IMG/VR virus record: IMGVR_UViG_3300042894_007411
Direction: 5' to 3' (one strand)
Origin: a virus
Lineage: Duplodnaviria; Heunggongvirae; Uroviricota; Caudoviricetes
DNA: 64,000 nucleotides
Position 1 is the stretch's first letter. Each line of letters begins with the position of its first letter. A model generated the notes under the pieces. The model had not been told where the DNA came from, ran no database searches, and saw nothing but the letters and a program-made list of their open reading frames with translations. The position numbers were made by a program, and so were the translations under genes. Shown piece after piece: positions 28,267 to 42,674 of the stretch.

Positions 28267-28551
28267 TTATGGATTATAATCTTTAATTTCTCTTTCAACT
28301 TCCACCCAAAAATTACTTTTAGGATGGTTAGCCCAATAAGCAGTTTCGGATTCATCGTCATCTTCTCTCATGAATTGAAGTATTTCTTTCACGATTGCCA
28401 AGGCACATTCTTTGTGGTAAATGTTTGTTGGGAGAGGTTTCATTATACCATCATAGTAATCTATCGATTGGTTTGTGCTAAAAGCCACCGATTCTATCAG
28501 TTGTTTTGCTTTTTCTTTAGGAGTTATTTCAATGGGTTTGTACTTAGACAT
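28267..28551 (-). CDS. small conserved protein, paralogue of 24303-24590
   Basis: Protein and flanking nucleotide similarity to 24303-24590. Confidence 0.5.
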   Translation of the reverse strand: MSKYKPIEITPKEKAKQLIESVAFSTNQSIDYYDGIMKPLPTNIYHKECALAIVKEILQFMREDDDESETAYWANHPKSNFWVEVEREIKDYNP

Positions 28552-29064
28552 TTATTTCCAGTCAATTTTAGGACAATACTTGTAATAGGTTGCTTTAACC
28601 ATTTCAACAGTAATATTAGAACTTTTTTCTTCTTTCGGTAGATTTTTCCTCCCCCATTTTCTTTCTTTTCTTTCTTTTATTTTATCTTGGATGTATTCAA
28701 TAAACCAAGCACAACCCCAAGTCAAACCTACCGCCCATACAAAAAAACCGTAAATAATTAAATTTTCTAAAATAGATCCTTTATGTGGTGTGTGCCAAAA
28801 TAACATAATGGGACTGAGAGCTGCAATTAAAAGCAAAAGTATAAACCAAGAAATGAAACTTATCCAAATTCTATTACCAAGTGATTCGTTATACGTATCT
28901 TTATCTATAATAACATAAGGAAGGGAAAAAATAAATAGTGGGATTGCGAATACATAAGCTATTACCAATTTCCAAAAGTATGGACATAAGTTGGTTGGAA
29001 GTTCACTTGTTCTGTAAAACCAACGGAAGAGTTTTGCTGAGATTGAGTTTTTGTTGAGTTTCAT
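28552..29064 (-). CDS. polytopic membrane protein
   Basis: Four hydrophobic segments. Confidence 0.45.
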   Translation of the reverse strand: MKLNKNSISAKLFRWFYRTSELPTNLCPYFWKLVIAYVFAIPLFIFSLPYVIIDKDTYNESLGNRIWISFISWFILLLLIAALSPIMLFWHTPHKGSILENLIIYGFFVWAVGLTWGCAWFIEYIQDKIKERKERKWGRKNLPKEEKSSNITVEMVKATYYKYCPKIDWK

Positions 29065-29435
29065 ACTTTTACAAGTTTAAATTTTTCACCACCAATTACA
29101 ATTTCTTTACCTTCGCAAGATTTGGGTCGGTTGTCTTTGATTATACCTTTTGAATTCTCAAAGTAGATTAGATTACCTTGAGAATCCCATTCCTGCTTTA
29201 ACCAATACCCAGTTGAATCCTCAAAGTAGATTCTATTACCTTGAGAATCCCATTCCTTCTTTGCCCAATATTTCTTTGAATTCTCATAGTAGATTTCATT
29301 ACCTTGAGAATCGTATTCACTCTTTACCCAACGTTTATTTGAATTCTCAAAGTAGATTTTTTTGCCATTCGTGTCTAGGATTACCAATGTACCATTGGTC
29401 TTGAAATCCCATTTAATTTGTTGTGCGATTGTCAT
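29061..29435 (-). CDS. MORN-variant-like repeat protein, array A member
   Basis: 'MTIAQQIKWDFKTNG' start; repeats 'EYDSQGNxIYYENSxGYWxK'; end 'KFKLVKV'; ATGA overlap. Confidence 0.6.
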   Translation of the reverse strand: MTIAQQIKWDFKTNGTLVILDTNGKKIYFENSNKRWVKSEYDSQGNEIYYENSKKYWAKKEWDSQGNRIYFEDSTGYWLKQEWDSQGNLIYFENSKGIIKDNRPKSCEGKEIVIGGEKFKLVKV

Positions 29436-29743
29436 ACTTTTACAAGTTTAAATTTTTCACCATCGATTTCTACTACTTTATTTTCGCAAGATTTAGGTCG
29501 GTTGTCTATGATTTTACCATTTGAATTCTCATAGTAGATTCTATTACCTTGAGAATCCCATTCTCGTTTTGACCAATATCCATCTGAATCATGATAGTAG
29601 GTTTGGTTACCTTGAGAATCGTATTCACACTTTCCCCAATATCCATCTGAATTCTCATAGTAGATTCTATTACCATTCTTGTCTTTAATTTCCAAGTAAC
29701 CGTTGGTCTCAAAGTCCCAGTTGATTTGTTGTCCTATTGTCAT
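29432..29743 (-). CDS. MORN-variant-like repeat protein, array A member
   Basis: Same family. Confidence 0.6.
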   Translation of the reverse strand: MTIGQQINWDFETNGYLEIKDKNGNRIYYENSDGYWGKCEYDSQGNQTYYHDSDGYWSKREWDSQGNRIYYENSNGKIIDNRPKSCENKVVEIDGEKFKLVKV

Positions 29744-29988
29744 ACTTTTACAAGTTTAAATTTTTCACCATCGATTTCTACTACTTTGTTTTCACAAGAC
29801 TTGGGTCGGTTGTCTCTGATTACGCCATATGAATTCTCATAGTAGATTTCTTTTCCTTGGGAATCCCACTCCTTCTTTGACCAATGTCCATTTGAATTCT
29901 CCCAGTAGATTTCTTTACCATTCTTGTCTTTAATTTCCAAGTTACCGTTGGCCTTGAAATCCCATTTGATTTGTTGTGCGATTGTCAT
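29740..29988 (-). CDS. MORN-variant-like repeat protein, array A member (short)
   Basis: Same family. Confidence 0.6.
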   Translation of the reverse strand: MTIAQQIKWDFKANGNLEIKDKNGKEIYWENSNGHWSKKEWDSQGKEIYYENSYGVIRDNRPKSCENKVVEIDGEKFKLVKV

Positions 29989-30296
29989 ACTTTTACAAGT
30001 TTAAATTTTTCACCATCAATTACGATTTCTTTATTTTCACAAGGCTTGGGTCGGTTGTCTTTGATTACACCACGTGAATTCTCAAGGTAGATTTCATTCC
30101 CTTCAGAATCCCATTCCTCCTTTACCCAATCTCCCTTTGAATCCCCAGAGTAGATACAATAGCCATTAGAATCGTATTCTTGTTTTGTCCAATACCCATA
30201 TGAAGCCTCTCGGTAGATTTCTTTACCATTCTTGTCTTTGATTACCAAGGAACCATTGGTTTCAAAGTCCCATTTGATTTGTTGTGCTATTGTCAT
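29985..30296 (-). CDS. MORN-variant-like repeat protein, array A member
   Basis: Same family. Confidence 0.6.
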   Translation of the reverse strand: MTIAQQIKWDFETNGSLVIKDKNGKEIYREASYGYWTKQEYDSNGYCIYSGDSKGDWVKEEWDSEGNEIYLENSRGVIKDNRPKPCENKEIVIDGEKFKLVKV

Positions 30297-30688
30297 ACTT
30301 TTACAAGTTTAAATTTTTCACCACCAATTACAATTTCTTTGTTTTCACAGGATTTGGGTCGGTAGTCTACGATTGCACCATCTGAATCCTCGTGGTAGAT
30401 TATATTACCTTTAGAATCGTATTCCCACTTTCTCCAATCTCCCTTTGAATTCTCCCAGTAGATTAATTTACCTTGAGAATCGTATTCACACTTTACCCAA
30501 AATCCATCTGAATTCTCATAGTAGATTAGATTGCCTTGAGAATCCATTTCATACTTTCTCCAAGTCCCATGTGAATCCTCAAAGTAGATTAGGTTGTCAT
30601 TCTTGTCTCGGATTATCAAGTCACCATTGGTCTTGAAATCCCATTTGATTTGTCGTGCTATTGTTTCCATAATTTTTTTAATCTTCAA
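30293..30688 (-). CDS. MORN-variant-like repeat protein, array A member (long)
   Basis: Same family; N-terminal 8-aa extension. Confidence 0.6.
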   Translation of the reverse strand: MKIKKIMETIARQIKWDFKTNGDLIIRDKNDNLIYFEDSHGTWRKYEMDSQGNLIYYENSDGFWVKCEYDSQGKLIYWENSKGDWRKWEYDSKGNIIYHEDSDGAIVDYRPKSCENKEIVIGGEKFKLVKV

Positions 30689-31214: not shown

Positions 31215-31267
31215 ATATTCGATTTCTTTTGTGAAATTAAAATTAAGGTAGGACGTTATTATTATTG

Positions 31268-32710
31268 TTAACCCTCTGATTTTTTGCTACTAGCCAAACC
31301 GTTCAACATTGATAAAATGTTTTTACCCTCCTCAGTTTGTTTTAGTCCTTCGAGTAAACCGTTAATTTGTGAAGCTCCTTTGGACGTGAAAAGGTCTGAA
31401 AGCTTTCCAATGCCGGATTGTACGTCTCCACTGTTAATGAGAAGCTTGAGATCAGCTGCGGATAAGGCTTTTGCCATAGATTCGTACTGTGCAACCCCGA
31501 CCACTTGGCTCACCTCCACCTCTTTTACCCGAATCAAGTACTCTTGATAAGGTTTGTTTTCCCCGATCTCTTTGGCCAAAGTGGTCTGTGCAGAAACGCT
31601 GGCCAATTCCATCGCCTTTCTTGATTCAGCCTCTGATATACCTTTGGCCTTAATAACATCTGCCTCTGCAGAACCAACAGTTTTGGTAGCCTCTGCCTCT
31701 TTACGTTTTGCTTCCAGTGCAGCTGATGCTTCTGTTTCAATACGGTATTTTTCGGCCATAGCACGAATTTCTGTCTTCTGTTTTTCTTGTTCTGCAGTGA
31801 TGATCTCACGTTCTCTGTCGATCTCGGCTTGCTTGACTTGATTTACCTTTATAACTTCCATCTCTTGCTCGGCAGTCATTCTTTGTGATTTTGCGATCTC
31901 CGAGATAGATTCTTGTTCTGCAATTCCTGTGCGTTTCTTTGACTCTGCTTTGGCTATTCCGATGGCCTGTTGAGATTGAGCCTGTGCCTCCCCTGCGATC
32001 TTTTCTGTTTCTGCAGTGGTGACGTCAATTTCTTTTCTGGCCTCTAGCTCTGCTTGTTTTGCCATCTTGTTGTTTTTCGCAACTTCAGTTCTTGATTCCA
32101 TGTCTATGGCTGACATTCTTTTTGCCATGATTTGGTGGATGACCTGGGATCCGTCTGCGTCTCTTACGTCCATCAATTCAATGCTTTTGATAGCTTCTAC
32201 CCCCCAGTTTTGCAAATCATTGTTGACCGCCTCTGTGAACTGCTTACCGAAAATGGATCTTTCCTCCATGATTTCTTCCAATTTTGATTTGGCCAAAATC
32301 GAACGGACTGCTCCTTGAACTACATTTTCTAACTGTCCTTTAAGTTCTTCAAATGATTCAACCTTTTGTGCTGCAACGTTTGTGTCAGATATATGAAAGA
32401 AAGCCTTTACGTCAACCACGAAAGGAACACGATCTTTATCATAGGCCTCATATCGTTTTAAATCGATGTCGAAGTTGCTAACTGGCAAAACACGTTTTGA
32501 TACACCGAAGAAAGGAAGCCAACTTGGCCATTCATAGTATACGTTGGATTGTTTATTGGTTCCATATGAGACCGTCTGTTTTCCACGTTGAACAATGTGT
32601 ACCACGTTGGTCGGCACGATTCGGCGAAGTGAAACAACGTAAATCAGAATGGAAATCCCGATGATGGTTGGTAACGATAGAGCTACCATGGAGAGAATTG
32701 ATAGAAACAT
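31268..32710 (-). CDS. flotillin-like SPFH/band-7 protein
   Basis: N-terminal TM, SPFH core, long Glu/Ala-rich heptad region typical of flotillin. Confidence 0.75.
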   Translation of the reverse strand: MFLSILSMVALSLPTIIGISILIYVVSLRRIVPTNVVHIVQRGKQTVSYGTNKQSNVYYEWPSWLPFFGVSKRVLPVSNFDIDLKRYEAYDKDRVPFVVDVKAFFHISDTNVAAQKVESFEELKGQLENVVQGAVRSILAKSKLEEIMEERSIFGKQFTEAVNNDLQNWGVEAIKSIELMDVRDADGSQVIHQIMAKRMSAIDMESRTEVAKNNKMAKQAELEARKEIDVTTAETEKIAGEAQAQSQQAIGIAKAESKKRTGIAEQESISEIAKSQRMTAEQEMEVIKVNQVKQAEIDREREIITAEQEKQKTEIRAMAEKYRIETEASAALEAKRKEAEATKTVGSAEADVIKAKGISEAESRKAMELASVSAQTTLAKEIGENKPYQEYLIRVKEVEVSQVVGVAQYESMAKALSAADLKLLINSGDVQSGIGKLSDLFTSKGASQINGLLEGLKQTEEGKNILSMLNGLASSKKSEG

Positions 32711-32765
32711 TTTTTTTGGGTTTAAATTGGTTTATGAAATTGGTTTTTGGATTTTAAAATTTAAA

Positions 32766-33413
32766 TTAAGAAAGAGAATTTGGAAGGTATAACAGAGTTG
32801 GATTCTTCTTTTGAATGTCGATATCTGGATACTTTTTTTTAAATTCCATCACATCAAACTTTTTTGTTATTAAATGATGGCCGTTTTTCGTTGGAATAAT
32901 TGCTTCTATCTTCGGACCCACTTTATGACCGATAGGAAATCCAGCTTCATCAAAGTCAACTTTGGTAATGGGTTGACAGGAATACTCCAGATGTGCCATC
33001 ATAAGGGGGGATGGTGTTTGTGATCCATCTACATCCACAATCCATCTTTTCTCATGAGTTTGCATTTGACCAACAACAGAATCAAAAAGATTTTTTTGGT
33101 TTGGTTGACCATTTCGAATTCTTTCAGCCAAGGAAACCATCATGTTTAAAGAAACATCTTTGTGATTTTGTTTCTGAACATGAATATAAGCTCTTGCTTT
33201 GAACATCTCGCACAATTGTTTTATCTCTTCATATCTTTGGTCGAGATGGTCAACACTTTCTATACAGTAGGTCTTGATTGTTCTGACCGACTGGTGGTTG
33301 TCTTTTTCACCCTCTGGTTGGTCTTTCTTCCTTTTGAAAACATACAACATGTAGAAATCTCCAGATTTCTCAAAATTAAGAAGAGGTTTGATTAGAGGAA
33401 GATTGTCTATCAT
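32766..33413 (-). CDS. hypothetical protein (start revised to 'MIDNLPL'; track ORF start at 33554 rejected)
   Basis: Track ORF N-terminal 47 aa overlie a terminator hairpin and a tRNA-like fragment. Confidence 0.45.
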   Translation of the reverse strand: MIDNLPLIKPLLNFEKSGDFYMLYVFKRKKDQPEGEKDNHQSVRTIKTYCIESVDHLDQRYEEIKQLCEMFKARAYIHVQKQNHKDVSLNMMVSLAERIRNGQPNQKNLFDSVVGQMQTHEKRWIVDVDGSQTPSPLMMAHLEYSCQPITKVDFDEAGFPIGHKVGPKIEAIIPTKNGHHLITKKFDVMEFKKKYPDIDIQKKNPTLLYLPNSLS

Positions 33414-33450
33414 TTGCTGTAAGTTGTAGCAAATATACGAAAAAGGATTC

Positions 33451-33490
33451 GATAAAAAACAAAAACCCAAATTTTTTTTGGGTTTTTTGT
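33451..33490 (-). terminator. rho-independent terminator (minus strand)
   Basis: Perfect stem 'aaaaacccaaa/tttgggttttt' followed by T-run on minus strand. Confidence 0.6.
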
Positions 33491-33498
33491 TATCTTTG

Positions 33499-33531
33499 CC
33501 AGAAGGGCGGGGTTCGAACCCGCGGCTCGCC
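33499..33531. other. tRNA-like 3' fragment (T-arm + acceptor 3' strand); not a complete tRNA
   Basis: 'gcggg-ttcgaac-cccgc' T stem-loop (minus-strand reading) followed by 7 nt + discriminator; no matching 5' acceptor strand, D-arm or anticodon arm. Confidence 0.5.
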
Positions 33532-33624
33532 ATTACCTCGACCTTAGCGTGCATTCGATCTCGACTTTGCTTGCGCTTTCAGTGGGTTTCCTTGTAGCAC
33601 GTTGTTACCCACACCTCCTGTTTT

Positions 33625-33852
33625 TTAGTCGTCGTTTCTTTCTCTGATTGAACCTGATGTTGAATCCGGAGGGATTGCACCCCAAATTTTTGCAAAATTT
33701 TTGTCTTCTATTACACGGGCAATGAAGTCAGATTTTGAAAGCGGATCATTGGTTGTCATCATCCAGGCGTTGTAATATTTCTGGTAAACAAGATCAATGT
33801 TAGATTTTTCTTCTCCGAAAGAAATTTGTTGTTTTTGTGAATTTGAAATCAT
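33625..33852 (-). CDS. hypothetical protein
   Basis: 75-aa ORF immediately upstream of terminator. Confidence 0.4.
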   Translation of the reverse strand: MISNSQKQQISFGEEKSNIDLVYQKYYNAWMMTTNDPLSKSDFIARVIEDKNFAKIWGAIPPDSTSGSIRERNDD

Positions 33853-33865
33853 AAGAATTTTTTAT

Positions 33866-34603
33866 TTAAGAAATTTCTCCTACAGATAGTTTTCCTTTAA
33901 CATCAATAAGAAATTTACCAATTTCTAAAGCATCTGCCAAATAATATTTTCCACCCATATACTTTCTCATGTGACCAAGATTTAAATCCTTAACTTGGGT
34001 GTGACCCACAATTTGAATAAAATTCTTTTTGATCCAATAATTTGAATCTGACCTCCTCTTTTTATTCGAAGCTAGTAGAGCGGGTATACGAATCCAAACA
34101 GGAGATTGTGTTACATCATTACCGTAAGAATTCCAACCAGAGAAACAAAAAGCTTTAGGTCGGAATACGAACATTTCGTTTATCTTTTCAACCAGATTCC
34201 AACAATCCCAGCCATTTATTCCAAATGTATTTTCCATCCAAATGTGGCTGACCCCTGCGTGTGTACAAAGATATCTATCGAAAGAGAATGACATTTGGAA
34301 TTGAGGTAAGTTTTCGGACAGAACTGTGGAAATATCGAATTGTAAACCCGGTTGAAACCCTGAGTATGTTTCACCAACGTGCATATAGTGAAGGTCGTGA
34401 TTACCTACGAGTAAAACTACTTCCTTGTCACTTGACTTTTTAAATTCAACTATTTCCTTGAAGTTGTGTAATTGGTCTATGCCAGGAATATCAAAAGAAT
34501 CAAAGTAATCCCCTAAGAATACAATTCTATCTGGATCCTCCTGCTGAATAATTTTTTTCCAGATGGATCTTCCGTGAATATCACCTATAAAAACTGTTTT
34601 CAT
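33866..34603 (-). CDS. calcineurin-like metallophosphoesterase (lambda-phosphatase/ApaH-like)
   Basis: 'GDIHG', 'GDYFD', 'GNHD', 'GHT' blocks. Confidence 0.7.
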   Translation of the reverse strand: MKTVFIGDIHGRSIWKKIIQQEDPDRIVFLGDYFDSFDIPGIDQLHNFKEIVEFKKSSDKEVVLLVGNHDLHYMHVGETYSGFQPGLQFDISTVLSENLPQFQMSFSFDRYLCTHAGVSHIWMENTFGINGWDCWNLVEKINEMFVFRPKAFCFSGWNSYGNDVTQSPVWIRIPALLASNKKRRSDSNYWIKKNFIQIVGHTQVKDLNLGHMRKYMGGKYYLADALEIGKFLIDVKGKLSVGEIS

Positions 34604-34644
34604 TTAATTGTAAATGTGAATAATTATGGTTCTGTTATTTCTCA

Positions 34645-35103
34645 TTATGATTCTATTAGTTGTGCAACGATGTTCTTAACAGTTCCAATATCTGCTCTTC
34701 CTTGGAATCTTTTATTGAACTCACCGATAGTTTTTCCTTGAAGAGCTTGCGGATTTTTGATTGTATCGCTGAATCCTTTCATGATCTCGATAAGAGAATC
34801 TGCGATTTCTTGGTCTGACATTTGAGCAGGCATGTACCTTCTTAAGACACACGCTTCATCACATTCTTTGCGGGCAAGTTCATCTCGTCCAGCATCCTCA
34901 AAGATCTTTTGAGATTCTTCTCTCTGCTTGATGGCTTTCACCAAAACTTTAACGACTTCTTCATCTTTTAAGTTTTGCGAAAACCCCGCTTTCTCGGCCT
35001 CGGTGATTTTTGCTTTTAAGCTGCTTAAAGCAGACTTCGCATTTTCATCTTTGGCTTTCATAGCCACCACGAAATCTTTTTGAATTTGTTCTTTGAGTGT
35101 CAT
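34645..35103 (-). CDS. GatB/YqeY-domain protein
   Basis: Full-length similarity to the YqeY pattern ('LKEQIQKDFVVAMKAKDE...'). Confidence 0.7.
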   Translation of the reverse strand: MTLKEQIQKDFVVAMKAKDENAKSALSSLKAKITEAEKAGFSQNLKDEEVVKVLVKAIKQREESQKIFEDAGRDELARKECDEACVLRRYMPAQMSDQEIADSLIEIMKGFSDTIKNPQALQGKTIGEFNKRFQGRADIGTVKNIVAQLIES

Positions 35104-35104
35104 A

Positions 35105-36205
35105 CTATTTTTCGTTTTTAAGAAGGAACTTGTTGCTAATTGCCTTGAAAGAAATGGTAGTGTCCATACTACGAATGACCACTCCTTCCCGTTCAGTATT
35201 GGGATTTAGAACTGATTTTCCTTCTGCTTGTTGTAGAAGTTCTTCGATGGTGTCTGGTAGAAGAAACTCAATCCCGAGAATTGGCACGGTTTCGAATCCC
35301 AATAACTTCATTATGTTGATAAAATCTCGAAGGTTTAGTCTTTCCTGCTTATCAATGTCAAAAGCATTGTAGAAACGAACGGTATGACCTTTGAGCTTGT
35401 AAGGATTCTTTTGAATTCCTTCTCCGATCAATTCTCCTTGGATGCAAATGTTAAGACCGGTTGCTAGTAACTTTTTCTTAATGTCCATTTCACGAGCTAC
35501 TTTCCAGAAAGTGTTTTCCTGCTTCGGTCTTTCCAAGCCATCTTCACACATTACAGTGCCAGGTACAAAATCTCCGGGGTCAGCAAGTTCCAGGTTGCGA
35601 GAGCAGACCCCAAATTCACCGTCCTTGATGTAGAATGTAGCAGAACTCCCATCCAACTTTTCAGTTGCATAGAACTGGTGTTTGCTGGAGAACTTCCATT
35701 CCTCGTATTCCTTGGTTAGATTCTGCACCCTCTCTTCATCGGTCTTACGGATAAAAGATGGGAAGTAGCCTTTGACCTTGCCGGCCAGCTCGGCAGGAAC
35801 TGGCGGCTCGTACTTGACAATGTTCAACATTTCTGTAACATCTAGTCCTTCGAACCAGCCCATATCCAGGTTAGGAGTGCTACGTTTGTAGATCGCATAG
35901 GAATCTGCCAATGGTAGGATGAGACCTTGTGATACTTGCCCGCGAAGTTTGATCGTCTTCAATCGAAATCCTTCAGATCCGTCAGACATTTTTTTATACG
36001 AGCTCTTCCGAAGAAACTCAAACTCTGGCTCAATTGGCAAGTAAGAGTCGATCTCGCAATAGACTACAAGATCTCCCTCTTTGTGGCCTACGTTTTTGCC
36101 AACCACCACTTGCCAGGAATTGATGATTGCCAGTTCAATGGAGTCTGCTCCTTCGATTGGTCGAATCTCACGGATTCTTTGTATGCTTGCTAATTTTCTT
36201 TCCAT
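35105..36205 (-). CDS. ATP-dependent RNA ligase, Rnl5 (DraRnl/NgrRnl)-like: N-terminal OB-like domain + C-terminal nucleotidyltransferase
   Basis: Motif I 'EKLDGSS' (no Arg after DG), motif IV 'EGVVIR', motif V 'KAISNKFLLK'. Confidence 0.6.
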   Translation of the reverse strand: MERKLASIQRIREIRPIEGADSIELAIINSWQVVVGKNVGHKEGDLVVYCEIDSYLPIEPEFEFLRKSSYKKMSDGSEGFRLKTIKLRGQVSQGLILPLADSYAIYKRSTPNLDMGWFEGLDVTEMLNIVKYEPPVPAELAGKVKGYFPSFIRKTDEERVQNLTKEYEEWKFSSKHQFYATEKLDGSSATFYIKDGEFGVCSRNLELADPGDFVPGTVMCEDGLERPKQENTFWKVAREMDIKKKLLATGLNICIQGELIGEGIQKNPYKLKGHTVRFYNAFDIDKQERLNLRDFINIMKLLGFETVPILGIEFLLPDTIEELLQQAEGKSVLNPNTEREGVVIRSMDTTISFKAISNKFLLKNEK

Positions 36206-36207
36206 GG

Positions 36208-36465
36208 TTAAATTGGATTTGTTAGTTGTCTTGTTACAATTCGGCTATCTTCATCAGGACGGGACTCGATTCCCAAAGAAACGGACTTCCCGTAACATTT
36301 GGCAACAACAATTGGGTCTCCGTATATGGGGTCAAAATCTGATCTAAAGGAGACGAACCCGGCACCATCACATTTTCGATTATATCCTACCATATCCTTG
36401 TGTTGAATTGCCGCAGAAAAAACTATTGCGCTTCCGTCCACAATTACGTATTTTGCTTCGTACAT
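36208..36465 (-). CDS. hypothetical protein
   Basis: 85-aa ORF. Confidence 0.4.
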   Translation of the reverse strand: MYEAKYVIVDGSAIVFSAAIQHKDMVGYNRKCDGAGFVSFRSDFDPIYGDPIVVAKCYGKSVSLGIESRPDEDSRIVTRQLTNPI

Positions 36466-36541
36466 AAATATTTAAATTTTATTAGAACAACAATAATTTC
36501 ATATTCTTATTGAACGCTAAATTAATAATTTATTTCCAATT

Positions 36542-36955
36542 TCATTCGAATTTTTCCCGAAAATTGTGAATTTTTTCAAAGTAAAATTGTACAGGTGTAC
36601 CAGTTTCAATAACCAATCCATAACGTTTGGCAAACTTGTATTGGGTGCTATATTCATTGAGAGAATTCACGAATTGCTTGATATTTGACCTGAACTCTTC
36701 CACAGTAAATGAGTTCTTTTGGATATTACAACTGGGGCAGGCTGGATTAAAATTTTCTAAAATTTCATTTTCTGGATTCCTACATGTTCCCTTGTTTACA
36801 AACTTACCTTTTTTTCTGTCCCATTTACTATCTCTGACAATTGGTTGAACATGGTCTGCATGCCAACTTTTTGTTAAATTACATCCACAATATGCACATT
36901 TCCCGCCATACTTCTCAAAAATTTTGATCCTATCAGATTTTTTCATCCATTTCAA
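36542..36955 (-). CDS. HNH endonuclease
   Basis: 'CAYCGC...HADHVQP...CPSCNIQKN'. Confidence 0.65.
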   Translation of the reverse strand: MKWMKKSDRIKIFEKYGGKCAYCGCNLTKSWHADHVQPIVRDSKWDRKKGKFVNKGTCRNPENEILENFNPACPSCNIQKNSFTVEEFRSNIKQFVNSLNEYSTQYKFAKRYGLVIETGTPVQFYFEKIHNFREKFE

Positions 36956-37307
36956 TCTGTCTGATTTTGTGAATGGCCTCCATAGGCATTGTCTTCACAC
37001 AATATTCAACGATATGTTTGAATTCTTCCATAGGAAAAACTAGAAGTTCTAAGGAGAAGACTTTTGAATCTCGATGTTCTTCTACCTGTAGGTGTTTACT
37101 AACCTTACCTACGATCTGTTCGGACAATCGTTGGGTTATTTCTTTGTATACAATTTTCTCAAAATCCACAGACGAATGTTCCAAGATATCTTTGGACAAA
37201 GTATGTTGACATTTGTGATGTGCATTTTCTAACATTAACGCTTGTTTGGCGGTTTGTAGAGATCTGACGAGTTCTCTAGAAACATGATCGAAATCTTGTG
37301 TGTTCAT
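36933..37307 (-). CDS. hypothetical protein
   Basis: 124-aa ORF. Confidence 0.4.
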   Translation of the reverse strand: MNTQDFDHVSRELVRSLQTAKQALMLENAHHKCQHTLSKDILEHSSVDFEKIVYKEITQRLSEQIVGKVSKHLQVEEHRDSKVFSLELLVFPMEEFKHIVEYCVKTMPMEAIHKIRQIEMDEKI

Positions 37308-37311
37308 TTTT

Positions 37312-38013
37312 TTAGGAATTTATTTGAACGTCAAATATGGTATTTTTGTGGTAATCTGATACATAACAACCCATAACGAGCAAAAATGTTTTTTCTCCGG
37401 GTATTCCAAAAAAACACCTCGAATCATTGGCGGAAAAGATTTCCAATTCAGATATTCCAACGAACAAAAGATTATCAATCAATTCCCTTGTAGTCTTCAT
37501 AGATAAGTAAACTCCATCCACATTAAAGTAATGATTTTCTGGTAAGTGGTAATGTCCAGTTTCCTCCGTGCCTGAGGGTATTTCACCTTCACCATCACAT
37601 TTTTCACAATCAGATTCCGAACCACAACAGTCACACTCAATAGTTCCAAATCCATCACACTCAGAGCATTCTATGTATTTTTCCGAAAATTCTGGAATTA
37701 ATTTGATTTTTTCAAAAACTTCTTCAAAATCCTTGATTTTAATTCTACCGATAGGTCGGGGAACACCCTCGTAAAATTCGGAGAATTTCTCAACAACTGG
37801 AAGTGCCTTGATCCCTTCTGTATCCGAATAAATGTATCTGTTTTCAAAATTTTTATAATCAGGATCGTAGGTCCAAATTAATTTGTAAGAATCCGTAGCA
37901 CAGACCCATCCATCGTCAAAACAGGTTGGTTTCAACATTTGTGTTCTAAGGATGCTATCCTTAGAACACCAGGATTCAATGAACGTTTGATATTTTGGAT
38001 GTTCTCTAAGCAT
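37312..38013 (-). CDS. protein with DnaJ-type CxxCxGxG zinc-finger cluster
   Basis: 'CSECDGFGTIECDCCGSESDCEKCDGEGE'. Confidence 0.5.
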   Translation of the reverse strand: MLREHPKYQTFIESWCSKDSILRTQMLKPTCFDDGWVCATDSYKLIWTYDPDYKNFENRYIYSDTEGIKALPVVEKFSEFYEGVPRPIGRIKIKDFEEVFEKIKLIPEFSEKYIECSECDGFGTIECDCCGSESDCEKCDGEGEIPSGTEETGHYHLPENHYFNVDGVYLSMKTTRELIDNLLFVGISELEIFSANDSRCFFGIPGEKTFLLVMGCYVSDYHKNTIFDVQINS

Positions 38014-38179
38014 TATTTTTTTTATTTAGAAAAGAAACTAAGAAAAAAATACCGAAGAAAATGGTAAAACCCCATCGGTGAGGTTCAATAGGACTATTGA
38101 ACTTAAACTGACTAGTTGCGTAGGCGCCTAGCATTAAACTACAAATAAAGAATAGGAACAAGAAGAAGTATTTTTTCAT
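38006..38179 (-). CDS. small signal-peptide/membrane protein (57 aa), not in ORF track
   Basis: Translation 'MKKYFFLFLFFICSLMLGAYATSQFKFNSPIEPHRWGFTIFFGIFFLVSFLNKKNNA'. Confidence 0.3.
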   Translation of the reverse strand: MKKYFFLFLFFICSLMLGAYATSQFKFNSPIEPHRWGFTIFFGIFFLVSFLNKKNNA

Positions 38180-38209
38180 TGGTTTTTTTTACAAATATAC
38201 AGATAAATC

Positions 38210-38665
38210 TCAAACAAAGTGTGGAATATTCACTCGAACACAAGATTGTGGTTGACCCTCGTTCATCCAAAAATTGTTAATGTAGCCCATAATGTTGGCG
38301 GATCCAATTGGGTTGGCCGAATGGGTGTAAACTAAGGGAAAAACGATACCAGATGATTTTTTTTCTGACCTACTTTCTTGAGTAATGTAATTGTCAAGAT
38401 AGTGATTGACCAACCACTTAGCACAATCCATTCCCGTCTTTTCAAGGATGTTATTGTAATCCAATTTGTAGTTTGGACTCACGTTATTGAAATATTCATT
38501 CATCGCTGTATCATCCAAATCGTGATCCAAAGAAATAAGTTCAATATTTTCCAAACCCGTATTCGTGACAGTTTCCACGAATTGTTCGTAGTTCCTAACA
38601 ACCACCCAATTTTCATCTTTGGGTGTCCTAACGTCATCTAAGTAAATTTGTTTTTTCATTTTCAA
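38210..38665 (-). CDS. hypothetical protein
   Basis: 151-aa ORF. Confidence 0.4.
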   Translation of the reverse strand: MKMKKQIYLDDVRTPKDENWVVVRNYEQFVETVTNTGLENIELISLDHDLDDTAMNEYFNNVSPNYKLDYNNILEKTGMDCAKWLVNHYLDNYITQESRSEKKSSGIVFPLVYTHSANPIGSANIMGYINNFWMNEGQPQSCVRVNIPHFV

Positions 38666-38671
38666 TTTTTT

Positions 38672-38914
38672 TTAAAGCCACTTCACGACGGATCCCCAAA
38701 CGGAATCTATAGAGTTAAAGAAAACTCGGTGATTTCCATTTCCTAGGGTTTGGGGTATGAACTCGAATTTAAAAAACCCCCTTATATAGAGGAATCCGAT
38801 TTGTTTGTGCATATAGAAACCTCCCTGAGTGAATTGTGGGGTTTCAATTTCAACATATGATCGACCTAGGATAAAATCGTACAATTTAGAAAAAAACAGC
38901 AAGAATAATTTCAT
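38672..38914 (-). CDS. hypothetical protein
   Basis: 80-aa ORF. Confidence 0.35.
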   Translation of the reverse strand: MKLFLLFFSKLYDFILGRSYVEIETPQFTQGGFYMHKQIGFLYIRGFFKFEFIPQTLGNGNHRVFFNSIDSVWGSVVKWL

Positions 38915-39159
38915 AGATTGATGTAAGTTGTTTTTTTGATGCTCTCTCCTATTTTTTCTTTTTGATTTTCTTTAAAAAGTTCAATTACATCTTCGGCTTG
39001 TTTTTGGGTGGGGTATATGTGTCTAGACTTATCACTTGTTGATGTTGTGTGAGAATCCGAAATTATATTTTCCCATGATTCCCATTCCCAAAATTTAACT
39101 TGTGGAGTATATCCCATCTCGCCAGAGTTTTTTTCCTCTACCATAATTCTGTATTTCAT
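38911..39159 (-). CDS. hypothetical protein
   Basis: 82-aa ORF. Confidence 0.35.
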   Translation of the reverse strand: MKYRIMVEEKNSGEMGYTPQVKFWEWESWENIISDSHTTSTSDKSRHIYPTQKQAEDVIELFKENQKEKIGESIKKTTYINL

Positions 39160-39791
39160 TGTTTAGTTTGTTTGATTAAAGTTCTATTCAATTTTCCATA
39201 GTTTGATTCACCGTCAAAAGCTCTACCAATACGGTACAAATGTTTAGGTGATAATCCAAAGTAACCATCACAATGATAAAATTTATCCATTTGTTCTGGA
39301 AGCATATCAGAGTCATCATCTAAAATTGCATAATCCTCAACTTCAGGATTTTTATCTAACCATTGCTGTATTTCTTCTCCCCTCATACCAAACCCCCTTC
39401 CAGTAATCCCAACAAAAGTTCCCTCATTAAATCCAAAATGTACCAAAGCATCTTCCCACCACTCTGGAATTAATTCTTTTTTCTTACCAAAATGATGTCT
39501 CCAAACAGATGAAACACAAATTTTAGTTCCAGTTTCATTACAAAAATTAGAAAGCCATTTCCATTTTTGTGGACAAGTTTCTCCAATCAACCTTTTAAGC
39601 TGAAATTCGTAGGTGTAGTAAATATCGGGTGTTTTGTGATTTGCATAACTCACAGGTTTTGATTTGATACCTAAAAACTTTCTGATTAAGTAGTAGTAAG
39701 TCCTGGGTTTCAACCACCTTTTTTTGTGTCGGTTCTCGTAAAAAACTTCAGAGTTCATAACCCCATCAATATCTAAAAATATAACTTTCAT
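39156..39791 (-). CDS. HAD-superfamily phosphatase
   Basis: Motif I 'FLDIDGVMN'. Confidence 0.55.
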   Translation of the reverse strand: MKVIFLDIDGVMNSEVFYENRHKKRWLKPRTYYYLIRKFLGIKSKPVSYANHKTPDIYYTYEFQLKRLIGETCPQKWKWLSNFCNETGTKICVSSVWRHHFGKKKELIPEWWEDALVHFGFNEGTFVGITGRGFGMRGEEIQQWLDKNPEVEDYAILDDDSDMLPEQMDKFYHCDGYFGLSPKHLYRIGRAFDGESNYGKLNRTLIKQTKQ

Positions 39792-40099
39792 ACTTTTACA
39801 AGTTTAAAATTTTCGCCATCGATTAGGATTTCTTTGTTTTCGCAAGACTTAGGTCGGTTGTCTATGATTAGACCACCTGAATCCTCAAAGTAGATTTTAT
39901 TACCTTGAGAATCGTATTCTCGTTTAGCCCAAACTCCATCTGAATCCTCAACGTAGATTAGATTGCCTTGAGAATCATATTCACACTTTTCCCAATATCC
40001 ATTTAAATGCTCATAATAGATTTCATTACCATTCTTGTCTCGGATTACCAAGAGACCATTGGTCTTGAAGTTCCATTTAATTTTTTGTGCGATTGTCAT
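39788..40099 (-). CDS. MORN-variant-like repeat protein, array B member
   Basis: Same family as array A. Confidence 0.6.
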   Translation of the reverse strand: MTIAQKIKWNFKTNGLLVIRDKNGNEIYYEHLNGYWEKCEYDSQGNLIYVEDSDGVWAKREYDSQGNKIYFEDSGGLIIDNRPKSCENKEILIDGENFKLVKV

Positions 40100-40548
40100 A
40101 CTTTCACGAGTTTAAATTTTTCACCACCAATTAGGATTTCTTTGTTTTCACAAGGCTTGGGTCGGTAGTCTATGATTTCACCATATGAATTCTCATAGTA
40201 GATTACATTACCATTCTTGTCTTTGATTTCCTTTAAGTTACCGTTGGCCTTGAAGTTCCATTTGACACTGGCCTTGAAGTTCCATTTGGCACAGGGTTTA
40301 GGTCGATCGTCTCTGATTTGGCCAACTGAATTTTCAAAGTAGATTACATTGCCTTGAGAATCCCATTCTCGTTTTGACCAATACCCATTTGAATCCTCCA
40401 AGTAGATTTGATTACCTTGAGAATCCCGTTCATACTTTTCCCAAAACCTATTTGAATCCTCAAAGTAGATTAGATTATCATTCTTGTCTTGGATGTTCAA
40501 GCATCCATTGGTCTCAAAATCCCATTTGATTTGTTGTGCTATTGTCAT
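40096..40548 (-). CDS. MORN-variant-like repeat protein, array B member (150 aa, internal KWNFKA duplication)
   Basis: Same family; 'AKWNFKASVKWNFKANG'. Confidence 0.6.
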   Translation of the reverse strand: MTIAQQIKWDFETNGCLNIQDKNDNLIYFEDSNRFWEKYERDSQGNQIYLEDSNGYWSKREWDSQGNVIYFENSVGQIRDDRPKPCAKWNFKASVKWNFKANGNLKEIKDKNGNVIYYENSYGEIIDYRPKPCENKEILIGGEKFKLVKV

Positions 40549-40859
40549 ACTTTCACGAGTTTAAATTTTTCACCATCGATTTCTACTACTTTGTTTTCAC
40601 AGGGTTTGGGTCGTTTGTCTTTGATTACACCTTTTGAATTCTCATAGTAGATTTCTTTACCTTGAGAATCCCATTCTTGTTTTTCCCAATATCCATCTGA
40701 ATTCTCATAGTAGATTAATTTTTCTTCAGAATTGTATTCATGCCTGTCCCAACCTCCCGTATTTTCAAAGTAGATTAGATTACCATTCTTGTCTCGGATT
40801 TCCAAGACACCGTTGGTCTTGAAATCCCATTTGATTTGTTGTGCTATTGTCTGTATCAT
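40545..40859 (-). CDS. MORN-variant-like repeat protein, array B member
   Basis: Same family. Confidence 0.6.
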   Translation of the reverse strand: MIQTIAQQIKWDFKTNGVLEIRDKNGNLIYFENTGGWDRHEYNSEEKLIYYENSDGYWEKQEWDSQGKEIYYENSKGVIKDKRPKPCENKVVEIDGEKFKLVKV

Positions 40860-41197
40860 ACTTTTACAAGTTTATATTTTCCACCAGGTGCAAACATAGA
40901 AAAAAGACCTAAGCCTTTAAATTCTACTACTTTACCTTCACAGGGCTTGGGTCGGCTGTCTATGATTTCACCATATGAATTCTCATAGTAGATTACTTTT
41001 CCTTCAGAATCCAGTTCCCACTTTCTCCAAGTCCCATGTGAATACTCCAAGTAGATCAATTTACCTTGAGAATCCCATTCATACTTTTCCCAAACTCCAT
41101 CTGAATTCTCCAGGTAGATTGGTTTACCATTCTTGTCTCGGATTACCAAGAGACCATTGGTCTTGAAATCCCATTTGATTTGCTGTGCTATCGTCAT
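40856..41197 (-). CDS. MORN-variant-like repeat protein, array B member (altered C-terminus)
   Basis: Same family; 'FKGLGLFSMFAPGGKYKLVKV' replaces the usual end. Confidence 0.55.
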   Translation of the reverse strand: MTIAQQIKWDFKTNGLLVIRDKNGKPIYLENSDGVWEKYEWDSQGKLIYLEYSHGTWRKWELDSEGKVIYYENSYGEIIDSRPKPCEGKVVEFKGLGLFSMFAPGGKYKLVKV

Positions 41198-41502
41198 ACT
41201 TTCACGAGTTTAAATTTTTCACCACCAAATTCTACTATCTTACCTTCACAAGACTTAGGTCGTTTGTCTTTAATTAGACCATCTGAATTCTCATAATAGA
41301 TTTCATTGCCTTCAGAATCGTATTCATGCTTTCTCCAATATCCCATTGAATTCTCACAGTAGATTTCTTTGCCTTTAGAATTCCGTTCCCACTTTGCCCA
41401 ATATCCATCTAAATCCTCAAAGTAGATTATTTTACCATTCTTGTCTAGGATATCCAAGTCACCATTAGTGAAGTCCCATTTGATTTGTTGTGCTATTGTC
41501 AT
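41194..41502 (-). CDS. MORN-variant-like repeat protein, array B member
   Basis: Same family. Confidence 0.6.
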   Translation of the reverse strand: MTIAQQIKWDFTNGDLDILDKNGKIIYFEDLDGYWAKWERNSKGKEIYCENSMGYWRKHEYDSEGNEIYYENSDGLIKDKRPKSCEGKIVEFGGEKFKLVKV

Positions 41503-41750
41503 ACTTTCACTAGTTTATATTTTTCACCTTCAAATTCTACTATCTTACCTTCACAGGGCTTGGGTCGTTTGTCTATGATTCTACCAAATGAATTCTCCCT
41601 GTAGATTAGATTGCCTTGAGAATCGTATTCGCTCTTTTCCCAAACCCTATTTGAATCCTCCCAGTAGATTAGTTTACCATTATTGTCTTTGATTCTCAAT
41701 TCATCATTGGTCCTGAAATCCCATTTGATTTGTTGTGCTACTGTTTTCAT
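41499..41750 (-). CDS. MORN-variant-like repeat protein, array B member (short)
   Basis: Same family. Confidence 0.6.
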   Translation of the reverse strand: MKTVAQQIKWDFRTNDELRIKDNNGKLIYWEDSNRVWEKSEYDSQGNLIYRENSFGRIIDKRPKPCEGKIVEFEGEKYKLVKV

Positions 41751-42058
41751 ACTTTTACAAGTTTAAATTTTTCACCACCGATTAGGATTTCTTTGTTTTC
41801 ACAAGATTTGGGTCGTTTGTCTGCGATTACACCATTTGAATCCTCACAGTAGATTACATTACCTTGAGAATCGAATTCATACTTTGCCCAAAGTCCTTTT
41901 GAATCCTCCATGTAGATTAGATTGTCTTGAGAATCGTATTCACGCTTTGCCCAAAATCCACTTGAAGTCTCAAAGTAGATTAGGGAATCATTCTTGTCTC
42001 GGATTTGCAAGACGCCATTGGTCTTGAAATCCCACTTGATTTGTTGTGCTATTGTCAT
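41747..42058 (-). CDS. MORN-variant-like repeat protein, array B member
   Basis: Same family. Confidence 0.6.
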   Translation of the reverse strand: MTIAQQIKWDFKTNGVLQIRDKNDSLIYFETSSGFWAKREYDSQDNLIYMEDSKGLWAKYEFDSQGNVIYCEDSNGVIADKRPKSCENKEILIGGEKFKLVKV

Positions 42059-42062
42059 ACTT

Positions 42063-42674
42063 TCATTTTTTATTTTGTAATTCTTCTAAATAATCCTGAA
42101 GATCTGATGAGGTCATATATGTTTTACTAAAATCAGGTTCAATTTTCTTAATTTGTTTAATTGTGTCTTCTTTTTTACCAAGTCTGTAATAATGAGCCTC
42201 AATAGCATCTGCTAAGTCTTGAATATATTTTGGTGCAGCAACCGAGATTCTTAAATCATACCAAGACCATTTTGTTTTATAGTCTGTGAATGTTATTCCT
42301 TTGGTTAGTTTTCTATGCAAATTATGTAGTGTTCTATTACGAACTCTTACAATTGATTTATCATTACCAAATACCTGAAGAAATCTAAGAAACCAACGAG
42401 GACACCACCAAGGTTTTGCTTCATAATCCATGGCCAAAACTAATGGGACCATAGCTTTATTATAGTATTTGTCATCAGGTACAGAACCTAAATAACCATA
42501 CTTTTGGGAAAAGTTTTTGGGAAAGAATATGAAACAAATATCACTCCACTTTAAATCACGAGTATAAATTATTCCTTTCTTTCTTCCTTTCCAAAATAGT
42601 AGAGATTGTCCAAAGTCTTTGACTTTATCAATAAGCGGACGATTGTCCTTAATGTAAAATTTACTTTTTTTCAT
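42063..42674 (-). CDS. hypothetical protein
   Basis: 203-aa ORF downstream of array B. Confidence 0.45.
   Translation of the reverse strand: MKKSKFYIKDNRPLIDKVKDFGQSLLFWKGRKKGIIYTRDLKWSDICFIFFPKNFSQKYGYLGSVPDDKYYNKAMVPLVLAMDYEAKPWWCPRWFLRFLQVFGNDKSIVRVRNRTLHNLHRKLTKGITFTDYKTKWSWYDLRISVAAPKYIQDLADAIEAHYYRLGKKEDTIKQIKKIEPDFSKTYMTSSDLQDYLEELQNKK

What the first reader, a model, noticed from the sequence alone, without database searches (positions are those of the whole stretch)
39788..42058. Twelve ~100-aa MORN-variant-like repeat proteins in two tandem arrays (7 here, 5 at 29061-30688)
Each gene starts 'MTIAQQIKWDF(K/E)TNG' and ends '...RPK(S/P)CE(N/G)K...GEKFKLVKV'. In between lie 2-4 copies of a ~22-aa unit, roughly 'EWDSQGNxIYYENSxGYWxK'. 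Members differ mainly in unit number, from 82 to 150 aa. Junctions are ATGA overlaps with near-identical junction DNA ('catacttttacaagtttaaatttttcacca'), which indicates recent unequal-crossover expansion. Paralogue amplification this heavy in a virus suggests dosage, decoy or variability selection, for example binding a host or defence component.
Basis: seen in the sequence. Interest (0 to 1): 0.65.

Follow-up and report, generated by a model that had tools for sequence, protein, structure and literature searches.

The report
Phage arrays of mini YD-repeat proteins
A large freshwater phage carries twelve tandem genes for tiny proteins built from the same beta-hairpin "YD" repeat that bacteria use in giant Rhs toxin shells. 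Each copy has the same ends but a different variable surface, which looks like a panel of binding proteins whose target is still unknown.

Summary
Twelve intact minus-strand paralogues of 82-150 aa lie in two arrays, 39788-42058 (7 genes) and 29061-30670 (5 genes), and every gene ends in an ATGA stop/start overlap.

The family label is wrong. No MORN, MORN_2 or KWG model matches any of the 12 at E<=1. The 21-aa (63-nt) unit, [DN]SxGxWxKxE[YW]DSQG[NK]xIYxE, is a YD (Rhs-type) repeat:
- TIGR01643 is above its cut-off for 2 of 12 genes.
- A family profile finds Rhs proteins first in the PDB.
- Pfam RHS_repeat matches 11 of 68 longer relatives.

The proteins are minimal, free-standing, capped YD hairpin sheets. 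They have no closed shell, toxin domain or autoprotease motif.

Six of the 21 unit positions are hypervariable (pN/pS about 2), while the scaffold and termini are under purifying selection. The same pattern recurs in seven other phage arrays.

The family is large (4,581 representative clusters) and almost confined to phages. It is usually single-copy, with repeated independent expansions of up to 16 copies. Close relatives of this phage have 1-2 copies at the same site.

The most likely role is a diversified intracellular binder panel for host or defence targets. That role is inferred, not shown.

The parts
41747..42058 (-). B1, 103 aa, 2 full YD units. First gene of array B, 4 nt after the stop of the conserved 203-aa gene.
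   Evidence: AlphaFold model pLDDT 84
41499..41750 (-). B2, 83 aa, 1 full unit
41194..41502 (-). B3, 102 aa, 2 full units (lacks K12)
40856..41197 (-). B4, 113 aa, 2 full units, 10-aa insertion (GLGLFSMFAP) in the C-terminal cap
   Evidence: TIGR01643 13.8 bits, below cut-off
40545..40859 (-). B5, 104 aa, 2 full units (start MIQTIAQQ)
40096..40548 (-). B6, 150 aa. In-frame fusion of a 2-unit gene (cut after RPKPC) to a 0-unit gene (from KWNFKANG on). Contains a 24-nt x2 duplication at 40245-40292.
   Evidence: same protein (P0024) seen on 19 contigs
39788..40099 (-). B7, 103 aa, 2 full units. Last gene of array B. Its ATGA overlaps the start of the HAD_SAK_2 gene 39156-39791.
   Evidence: TIGR01643 16.2 bits, cut-off 15.8
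30293..30670 (-). A1, 125 aa from the ATG at 30670 (the ORF list gives a TTG at 30688), 3 full units. First gene of array A, 8 nt after the HD-phosphohydrolase gene.
   Evidence: TIGR01643 26.7 bits, E 5e-6
29985..30296 (-). A2, 103 aa, 2 full units
29740..29988 (-). A3, 82 aa, 1 full unit (shortest member)
29432..29743 (-). A4, 103 aa, 2 full units
29061..29435 (-). A5, 124 aa, 3 full units. Last gene of array A. Its ATGA overlaps the start of the membrane-protein gene 28552-29064.

Best explanation
The twelve genes encode a phage-specific family of minimal, free-standing YD (Rhs-type) beta-hairpin repeat proteins.

Architecture. Each protein has four parts:
- a conserved N-terminal cap (MTIAQQIKWDFKTNG..);
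- 1-3 full 21-aa hairpin units, [DN]SxGxWxKxE[YW]DSQG[NK]xIYxE;
- an invariant loop, I.DNRPK;
- a short C-terminal hairpin cap.
Together they form one small elongated beta-sheet. There is no signal peptide, membrane segment, toxin domain or closed shell.

Variation. Scaffold positions (W, K, E, D, S, G, I, Y, E) and both caps are under purifying selection. Positions 3, 5, 7, 9, 17 and 20 of every unit are hypervariable, and four of them (5, 7, 9, 17) fall on one face of the sheet. The two arrays therefore encode twelve co-transcribed, translationally coupled versions of one scaffold with different surfaces and lengths.

Origin. The repertoire arose by unequal recombination within and between genes, in a plastic region of the genome. 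Close relatives carry only 1-2 copies there.

Function (inferred, not shown). The proteins act inside the infected cell as a panel of binders against variable host macromolecules, most plausibly defence or takeover targets. This would be comparable in logic to poxvirus ankyrin host-range families or variable LRR arrays.
For: Shown:
- Twelve intact paralogues with ATGA overlaps.
- Period of 63 nt.
- Selection: the N-cap has dN/dS 0.14 despite dS of about 0.7, and the units have dN/dS 0.9. Variable positions have pN/pS 2.25 against 0.20 for the scaffold. Differences are equal across codon positions. The same positions are the non-consensus columns in 23 metagenomic homologues. They are again the most variable in 7 other arrays, tested with classes fixed beforehand, with ratio >1 in 6 of 7.
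- Phage-specific and accessory: 204 relatives in viral contigs, and arrays of 16, 10, 9 and 7 copies in unrelated phages. Among one genome for each of 185,579 bacterial and archaeal species, only two loci hold small members with caps: a five-copy array on a Saprospirales genome-bin contig and one P8625-like gene on an Opitutae bin contig. The rest are long YD proteins of gut bacteria.
- Copy number: the close relative L012 has 1 copy where this phage has 7. More distant relatives with the same flanking synteny have none.
- Location: the genes lie among non-structural genes, namely RNA ligase, HAD, HD and SPFH genes. In phage P8625 the homologue lies between a helicase and a primase gene.

Inferred: the face assignment (from the DSSP strand register), the cytoplasmic location (no hydrophobic run), and the binder function.
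Against: - No target, partner or phenotype is known. No characterised homologue exists in PHROGs, BFVD or the papers searched.
- pN/pS above 1 at selected positions could partly reflect relaxed constraint. The classes were first chosen after seeing the data, and per-class synonymous counts are small. One of the seven test arrays gave 0.79.
- Conserved neighbours are explained by phylogeny alone.
- Expression and translation of each copy are untested.
- The strongly conserved N-terminal 13 residues are not placed by AlphaFold (pLDDT <50). Part of the mechanism is therefore missing.
Confidence: 0.42

Rival explanations
1. MORN-variant (MORN_2 / YwqK-like) repeat proteins, for example antitoxin-like immunity proteins.
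For: Both families are roughly 21-23-aa beta-hairpin repeats rich in G, Y and W. Giant-virus MORN proteins appear far down the BFVD fold list, at E 0.14-0.28.
Confidence: 0.04
2. Virion-associated proteins. They would be either decoration or structural subunits, or packaged internal proteins injected with the DNA, as with T4 internal proteins. The conserved, apparently disordered N-terminus would serve as a capsid-targeting peptide.
For: The N-terminal 13 residues or so are invariant under strong purifying selection (dN/dS 0.14) but unplaced in the model (pLDDT <50). The proteins form a polymorphic multi-gene locus in a plastic region. From memory, not tested here: this resembles the T4 internal-protein locus and its capsid-targeting sequence MKTYQEFIAE.
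Against: No structural-family match. Neighbours are metabolic or early-type genes. In P8625 the gene lies in the replication module and has a divergent N-terminus. The N-cap pattern of alternating hydrophobic residues fits a structural strand.
Confidence: 0.13
3. Multivalent glycan- or cell-wall-binding modules, acting like choline-binding or glucan-binding hairpin repeats. They would bind a repetitive envelope polymer, for example at lysis or for superinfection exclusion.
For: The proteins contain 12-16% aromatic residues. There are weak hits to a glucan-binding repeat (TIGR04035, E 0.0015), to glucansucrases (E about 0.6) and to Choline_bind_3 (E 0.56). Natural multi-module polyproteins exist (P0125, 5 modules). 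Relatives in gut Clostridia carry the Cu_amine_oxidN1 domain, which from memory is typical of surface proteins.
Against: All of those hits are below threshold. The proteins have no signal peptide or membrane anchor, so they would reach the envelope only after lysis. Hypervariable surfaces argue against a single conserved polymer ligand.
Confidence: 0.13
4. Self-assembling subunits. Conserved N- and C-caps dock head to tail, so that the paralogues build a larger YD sheet or cage, in effect a split Rhs-like shell.
For: The caps are identical across paralogues, and translational coupling would give near-equal amounts. Gene fusions are tolerated (B6, and fused ORFs in L057). Multi-module polyproteins occur elsewhere. 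Fusion of separately encoded proteins often signals that they work together (general principle).
Against: Most phages carry a single copy. No plug, autoprotease or cargo is present. Multimer modelling could not be run, so there is no direct evidence.
Confidence: 0.07
5. Non-functional repeat DNA, with ORFs that are artefacts of a selfish or slippage-prone tandem repeat.
For: Tandem periodicity exists at two levels, 63 nt and about 250-310 nt.
Against: All 12 frames are intact. The scaffold (pN/pS 0.2) and the caps (dN/dS 0.14-0.34) are under strong purifying selection. The protein family is conserved in thousands of clusters and in many phage lineages.
Confidence: 0.02

Closest known systems
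YD / RHS repeats of bacterial Rhs and Tc (BC) toxins and of teneurins (TIGR01643, Pfam PF05593)
   Same: Same repeat: a G about 7 residues before YDxxG[NR]-L/I, a period of about 21 aa, and beta-hairpins stacked into one sheet. These are the best sequence-profile and fold matches.
   Different: Known YD proteins have dozens of repeats closing into a shell of 700 aa or more. They also carry an N-terminal plug, a DPxGL autoprotease and an encapsulated C-terminal toxin. The proteins here have 1-3 units (82-150 aa), are capped at both ends, lack a DPxGL motif (regex DP.G) and are too short to carry a toxin domain. They are encoded by phages in tandem arrays.
Tandem arrays of variable LRR proteins in Flavobacterium psychrophilum (Altae-Tran et al. 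2020, PMC10392669)
   Same: [quoted passage not shown]
   Different: A different fold (LRR solenoid). Those are bacterial, secreted, surface-anchored proteins. The ones here are YD hairpins, phage-encoded, with no secretion signal.
Poxvirus ankyrin-repeat host-range families and T4 internal-protein loci (from general knowledge, not tested here)
   Same: Viral multi-copy families that combine a conserved terminal peptide with a variable body, located in plastic genome regions and used against host defences.
   Different: Unrelated folds and hosts. No functional data exist for the present family.
MORN_2 / YwqK antitoxin repeats (Pfam PF07661)
   Same: Short beta-hairpin repeats rich in G, Y and W, found in small proteins.
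   Different: No HMM or fold match here, and a different period and motif.

Membership tests
MORN (PF02493) / MORN_2-YwqK (PF07661) / WG-KWG repeats (PF14903) | Match to the family HMM at or near the gathering score | tested here: not met
   No hit at E<=1 for any of the 12 window proteins or for 68 longer relatives at E<=1e-4.
MORN (PF02493) / MORN_2-YwqK (PF07661) | A period of about 23 aa with the YxGxWxxGKxHGxG-type motif (motif recalled from memory) | tested here: not met
   The period is 63 nt = 21 aa. The consensus is [DN]SxGxWxKxE[YW]DSQG[NK]xIYxE.
MORN (PF02493) / MORN_2-YwqK (PF07661) | Fold closest to solved or predicted MORN proteins | tested here: not met
YD / RHS repeat (TIGR01643, PF05593) | Match to the repeat HMM above the curated cut-off | tested here: inconclusive
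   TIGR01643 passes in 2 of 12 proteins (26.7 and 16.2 bits, cut-off 15.8) and scores 13.8 bits in a third. The best PF05593 score in the window is 13.5 bits, below the cut-off of 22. PF05593 matches 11 of 68 longer family relatives, best E 4e-20.
YD / RHS repeat (TIGR01643, PF05593) | Gx7YDxxG[NR][LI] motif with a period of about 21 aa | tested here: met
   Alignment of 24 units, TRF period 63, and the residue-level alignment to RhsA and Tse15 repeats.
YD / RHS repeat (TIGR01643, PF05593) | Beta-hairpin sheet superposable on YD shells | tested here: met
Rhs / Tc polymorphic toxin system | A closed shell of dozens of repeats, a DPxGL aspartyl autoprotease motif, a C-terminal toxin domain and an adjacent immunity gene | tested here: not met
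   The proteins are 82-150 aa with 1-3 units and no DP.G motif. The C-terminal tail is only 17-27 aa. No toxin or immunity family is found in the genes checked on either side.
Choline-binding / cell-wall-binding / glucan-binding repeats (PF01473, PF19127, TIGR04035) | Match to the repeat HMM above cut-off | tested here: not met
   TIGR04035 scores 18.7 bits against a cut-off of 147.7. Choline_bind_3 scores 10.6 bits against 27.
Diversity-generating retroelement target | Variable-repeat differences confined to adenines of a template repeat | tested here: not met
   On average 31% of mismatches fall at A, close to the A content of 36%. The best pair reaches 75% of 12 mismatches. Whether the window holds a reverse transcriptase was not searched exhaustively.

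The most novel reading that the evidence does not exclude
Phages have turned the YD hairpin into a compact, evolvable binder scaffold. Arrays of translationally coupled paralogues would form a combinatorial repertoire of recognition surfaces. The invariant N-terminal peptide, the I.DNRPK loop and the C-terminal hairpin would act as a shared docking or targeting signal, either to one another (head-to-tail assembly), to the capsid, or to a common host machine. This would be a previously unrecognised class of phage host-interaction or anti-defence proteins, present in thousands of aquatic phage lineages.
Probability: 0.2. Interest if true: 0.8.

Novelty: new variant of a known kind. Interest (0 to 1): 0.55.

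Why it matters
YD repeats are known almost only as the building blocks of huge toxin-encapsulating shells (Rhs, Tc, teneurins). Here the same repeat appears as a stand-alone protein of 80-150 aa, with its own caps and a hypervariable face. It is nearly confined to phages, abundant in freshwater and marine viromes (4,581 representative clusters), and repeatedly amplified into tandem arrays.

If the panel-of-binders reading is right, this is a widespread and uncharacterised phage tool for engaging variable host factors. It could also serve as a naturally evolvable mini-scaffold for protein engineering. At the least, it corrects the annotation from MORN to YD and defines the family's architecture and its variable and scaffold positions.

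Tried and rejected
- MORN / MORN_2 / KWG membership: no HMM hit.
- PHROGs: only two noise-level hits to families of unknown function.
- Megablast of the array region against 50,697 phage records: no match. tblastn found only Verrucomicrobia phage P8625 gp42/43 and one uncultured phage.
- Conserved-neighbour analysis over 77 viral loci: the neighbours shared across loci trace to two phage lineages, so they reflect relatedness, not function. The apparent link to RNA-repair genes rests on the HAD_SAK_2 gene next to array B, the RNA ligase, phosphoesterase and HD genes between the arrays, and one HAD_SAK_1 fusion (P0236). It does not hold in other loci.
- The upstream 203-aa gene (42063-42674) as a partner or orphan C-terminal module: it shares a KDNRP motif. 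However, it is a stand-alone core gene with 3,263 homologues, never fused to YD repeats, and it occurs without YD genes in more distant relatives. Its AlphaFold model failed (pLDDT 44.6), so no fold search was run. The PDB profile search found nothing.
- First scan of bacterial and archaeal genomes with the type-A caps: nothing.
- Promoter and terminator scan: no more sites than in shuffled sequence.
- DGR-type mutagenesis: no adenine bias.
- DNA-mimic idea: pI 4.9-8.8, not strongly acidic.
- Literature searches for YD-repeat proteins in phages: nothing relevant.
Full report
**1. The observation**

ORF listing shows seven head-to-tail minus-strand ORFs at 39788-42058 and five at 29061-30688. 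They are 82-150 aa long. All have the N-terminus MTIAQQIKWDF(K/E)TNG (with minor variants) and the C-terminus RPK[SP]CE[NG]K...GEKFKLVKV. A six-frame motif scan finds no other copy in the 64-kb window.

Every gene ends in ATGA overlapping the next start codon. This includes the junctions with the unrelated genes that follow each array: the HAD_SAK_2 gene 39156-39791 and the membrane-protein gene 28552-29064. It is exact in all five array-A genes and in B1.

Tandem Repeats Finder gives an intragenic period of 63 nt (21 aa) at 75-82% matches, and whole-gene periods of about 245-308 nt. Array A's first gene most likely starts at the ATG at 30670. That gives 125 aa, identical to database protein P0003.

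The 150-aa member (40096-40548) is an in-frame fusion. One gene is cut after RPKPC and joined to the KWNFKANG.. part of the next, with a 24-nt duplication at 40245-40292. The fused protein is seen on 19 contigs, so it is stable in nature.

**2. Source and setting**

The exact proteins occur on metagenomic contigs from freshwater lakes, and the longest contig is 231,759 bp. The window encodes phage-type genes:
- a DNA-polymerase piece;
- thymidylate synthase;
- RNA ligase;
- an SbcD/gp47-like exonuclease;
- endolysin-like proteins.

It has 35% G+C and no close DNA match among 50,697 deposited phage records. This is therefore an uncultured jumbo phage.

Both arrays sit in one long minus-strand gene block. 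The scan for sigma-70-type promoters and intrinsic terminators found no more sites than in shuffled sequence. The surrounding genes are non-structural: HD phosphohydrolase, SPFH/flotillin, metallophosphoesterase, RNA ligase, HAD_SAK_2 and an FkbM methyltransferase.

**3. Which repeat it is**

None of the twelve proteins matches MORN, MORN_2 (YwqK) or WG/KWG repeats in Pfam, even at E<=1. The evidence for a YD (Rhs-type) repeat is as follows:
- NCBIfam TIGR01643 (YD_repeat_2x) is above its cut-off for two proteins (26.7 and 16.2 bits, cut-off 15.8) and just below it for a third.
- A profile of 29 family members searched against all PDB sequences finds Rhs proteins first (RhsA 7q97, E 4.9e-4; Tse15, E 3.5e-3), and its repeats align in register with theirs. 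It finds no MORN protein.
- AlphaFold2 with that alignment gives a confident model (mean pLDDT 84). It is a ladder of nine beta-strands forming consecutive hairpins. Only residues 1-13 are unplaced.
- Among 68 longer relatives from an exhaustive profile search, 11 match Pfam RHS_repeat (best E 4e-20) and none matches MORN.

The MORN-variant label is therefore not supported. The unit is a YD repeat. The proteins nevertheless lack everything else that defines Rhs and Tc toxins: the closed shell, the DPxGL autoprotease motif, the toxin domain and the immunity gene.

**4. Anatomy and selection**

Twenty-four full units give the consensus [DN]-S-x-G-x-W-x-K-x-E-[YW]-D-S-Q-G-[NK]-x-I-Y-x-E. Positions 3, 5, 7, 9, 17 and 20 carry 2.6-3.1 bits of entropy. 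W6, E10, S13 and Y19 are invariant.

With the strand register from the model (strands at unit positions 6-11 and 17-22), positions 5, 7, 9, 11 and 17 lie on one face together with Y19 and E21. W6, K8, E10 and I18 lie on the other face.

Selection statistics:

| Region or class | Statistic |
|---|---|
| N-cap | dN/dS 0.14, dS about 0.7 |
| C-cap | dN/dS 0.34 |
| Unit region overall | dN/dS 0.9 |
| Six variable positions, all unit pairs | pN 0.55, pS 0.25 |
| Scaffold positions, all unit pairs | pN 0.06, pS 0.29 |
| Differences at codon positions 1 / 2 / 3 | 1568 / 1412 / 1372 |

The same positions are the non-consensus columns in an alignment made mostly of metagenomic homologues. When the classes were fixed in advance and applied to seven other arrays from unrelated phages, those positions were again the most variable. 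Their pN/pS was 0.8-3.1 (above 1 in six of seven), against 0.15-0.87 for the scaffold.

The conserved termini are therefore maintained by selection on the protein. Only the last 30 nt or so of the array-A genes look homogenised at the DNA level. Paralogues are 70-88% identical in DNA, and no two units exceed 89%. The best unit matches are often between the two arrays. This indicates old, mosaic, recombining paralogues rather than a fresh burst. There is no adenine-specific mismatch pattern, so a diversity-generating retroelement is not the source of the variation.

**5. The wider family**

One member finds 477 close relatives, all 82-167 aa, and a few of them are labelled 'YD repeat-containing protein' by JGI. 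The exhaustive profile search finds 4,581 representative clusters at E<=1e-3 and 1,349 at E<=1e-10.

In IMG/VR, 204 stretches in 77 loci encode relatives. Most loci have one copy, but arrays recur: 16 copies (L057), 10 (L070), 9 (L071), 7 (L028 and L033) and 6 (L073).

The architecture is modular: an N-cap (..TIAQQ[IL]..), n hairpins, I.DNRPK, then a lineage-specific C-terminal tail. The tail types seen are:
- type A: CENKEIVIGGEKFKLVKV, as in this window;
- type B: ELTLEEIAAKLG..LRIKD;
- type C: EYTMEELTKMLGKEFKIKK;
- type D: TEVQKAIELLTKEGLI.DGKILKN;
- occasional longer C-terminal domains.

Some organisms encode polyproteins of up to five complete modules (P0125), and single fusions to HAD_SAK_1 or SET domains exist.

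Among one genome for each of 185,579 bacterial and archaeal species, the small capped form appears in only two loci. One is a Saprospirales genome-bin contig with at least five tandem copies. The other is an Opitutae bin contig with a P8625-like gene. Both are probably phage DNA, which was not checked. The remaining hits are long YD proteins of gut Clostridia and Treponema.

In the cultured Verrucomicrobia phage P8625, the homologue (gp42) lies between helicase and primase genes. BFVD holds only uncharacterised Caudovirales relatives. No paper describing the family was found.

**6. Copy number in relatives**

The 203-aa gene upstream of array B (42063-42674) is a core gene of this phage group, with 3,263 homologues. 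The number of YD genes found in the 10 kb or so held around this gene depends on how close the relative is:

| Relative | Identity of the 203-aa gene | YD genes found |
|---|---|---|
| This window | - | 7 directly downstream (12 in the window) |
| L012 | 95% | 1 |
| L038, L064 | 77-84% | 1 |
| L023 / L024 | 82% | 2 |
| L142-L145 | 69%, same upstream synteny | 0 |

In L142-L145 the homologue of window gene 28267-28551 lies 3 kb downstream of the 203-aa gene. The 29-42-kb interval of the window is thus a plastic region bounded by core genes. The twelve-copy state is a lineage-specific expansion.

**7. Interpretation**

Shown:
- the fold class;
- the modular architecture;
- the split between scaffold and variable positions;
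- the near-restriction to phages;
- recurrent independent amplification;
- the accessory status of the genes.

Inferred: the proteins are cytoplasmic. They have no signal peptide or hydrophobic run, and they are hydrophilic (GRAVY about -1), with pI 4.9-8.8. The variable face is inferred to be a binding surface.

The pattern is one scaffold, invariant ends, a periodic hypervariable face, variable length, and co-translated arrays in a plastic region. This is the signature of a diversified binder repertoire. It has been described for tandem LRR-protein arrays in Flavobacterium (PMC10392669) and, from general knowledge, for viral host-range multigene families. I therefore favour a panel of intracellular binders aimed at variable host factors, either defence or takeover targets.

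Rival explanations that remain open:
- packaged or structural virion proteins, with the conserved N-peptide as a targeting signal;
- lectin-like binding of envelope polymers (only sub-threshold similarity to glucan- and choline-binding repeats);
- head-to-tail co-assembly into a larger YD sheet.

A non-functional repeat is excluded by the selection pattern.

**8. Verdict**

The family assignment is corrected from MORN to YD/Rhs-type. The variability-selection idea is supported by sequence statistics, but the biological target is unknown.

This is a new variant of a known kind: a minimal, capped, free-standing YD-repeat protein specific to phages and prone to array expansion. It is of moderate to fairly high interest. 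The family is large, uncharacterised and shows a clear signature of surface diversification.

Noticed in passing
window 42063-42674 (-): This 203-aa gene lies directly upstream of array B. It is a highly conserved core gene of this freshwater phage group (3,263 homologues, all about 203-235 aa). Its N-terminus, MKSKF.[IF]KDNRPF, shares the KDNRP motif with the I.DNRPK loop of the YD proteins. It has no Pfam, PHROG or PDB match, and its AlphaFold model failed (pLDDT 44.6).
   Followed up: partly
window 30678-39791 (-): The genes between and beside the arrays look like an RNA-repair or nucleotide set: HD phosphohydrolase (30678-31214), metallophosphoesterase (33866-34603), RNA ligase (35105-36205) and HAD_SAK_2 (39156-39791). 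One distant YD polyprotein (P0236) is fused to HAD_SAK_1. The association did not hold in other loci.
   Followed up: partly
window 31268-32710 (-): A 480-aa SPFH/Band-7 (flotillin-like) protein encoded by a phage (Pfam E 5e-19).
   Followed up: no
window 48982-50043 (-): A glutamine synthetase-like gene. The Gln-synt_N and Gln-synt_C domains were called on the matching metagenomic contig L002. It is a possible auxiliary metabolic gene.
   Followed up: no
window 40245-40292: A 24-nt x2 direct duplication (95% matches) encoding KWNFKA(S/N)V lies exactly at the junction of the in-frame two-gene fusion B6. It is a footprint of the recombination or slippage event that made the fusion.
   Followed up: yes
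window 29150-29404, 30445-30636, 40634-40822, 40975-41166, 41836-42027 (+): Plus-strand ORFs of 50-84 aa (MNSHSRL..-type) mirror each YD gene. They recur because the DNA is repeated and are probably not genes.
   Followed up: no
L086 1-7466 (Saprospirales MAG contig CALAZP010000052.1): At least five tandem YD-family genes combine a type-B N-cap with a type-A C-cap. The caps are therefore mix-and-match modules. The bin assignment hints at a Bacteroidota (Saprospirales) host for some of these phages.
   Followed up: partly
P0125 (757 aa), P0132, P0140, P0129: These are Asn-rich polyproteins made of up to five complete modules. Each module has a helical cap of about 50 aa, YD hairpins and I.DNR. 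Their source organisms are unknown. They show that the module also works as beads on a string.
   Followed up: partly
window 6995-8212 (-): This 405-aa ORF matches only positions 2-371 of a 425-position DNA-polymerase PHROG. It may be one piece of a split DNA polymerase.
   Followed up: no
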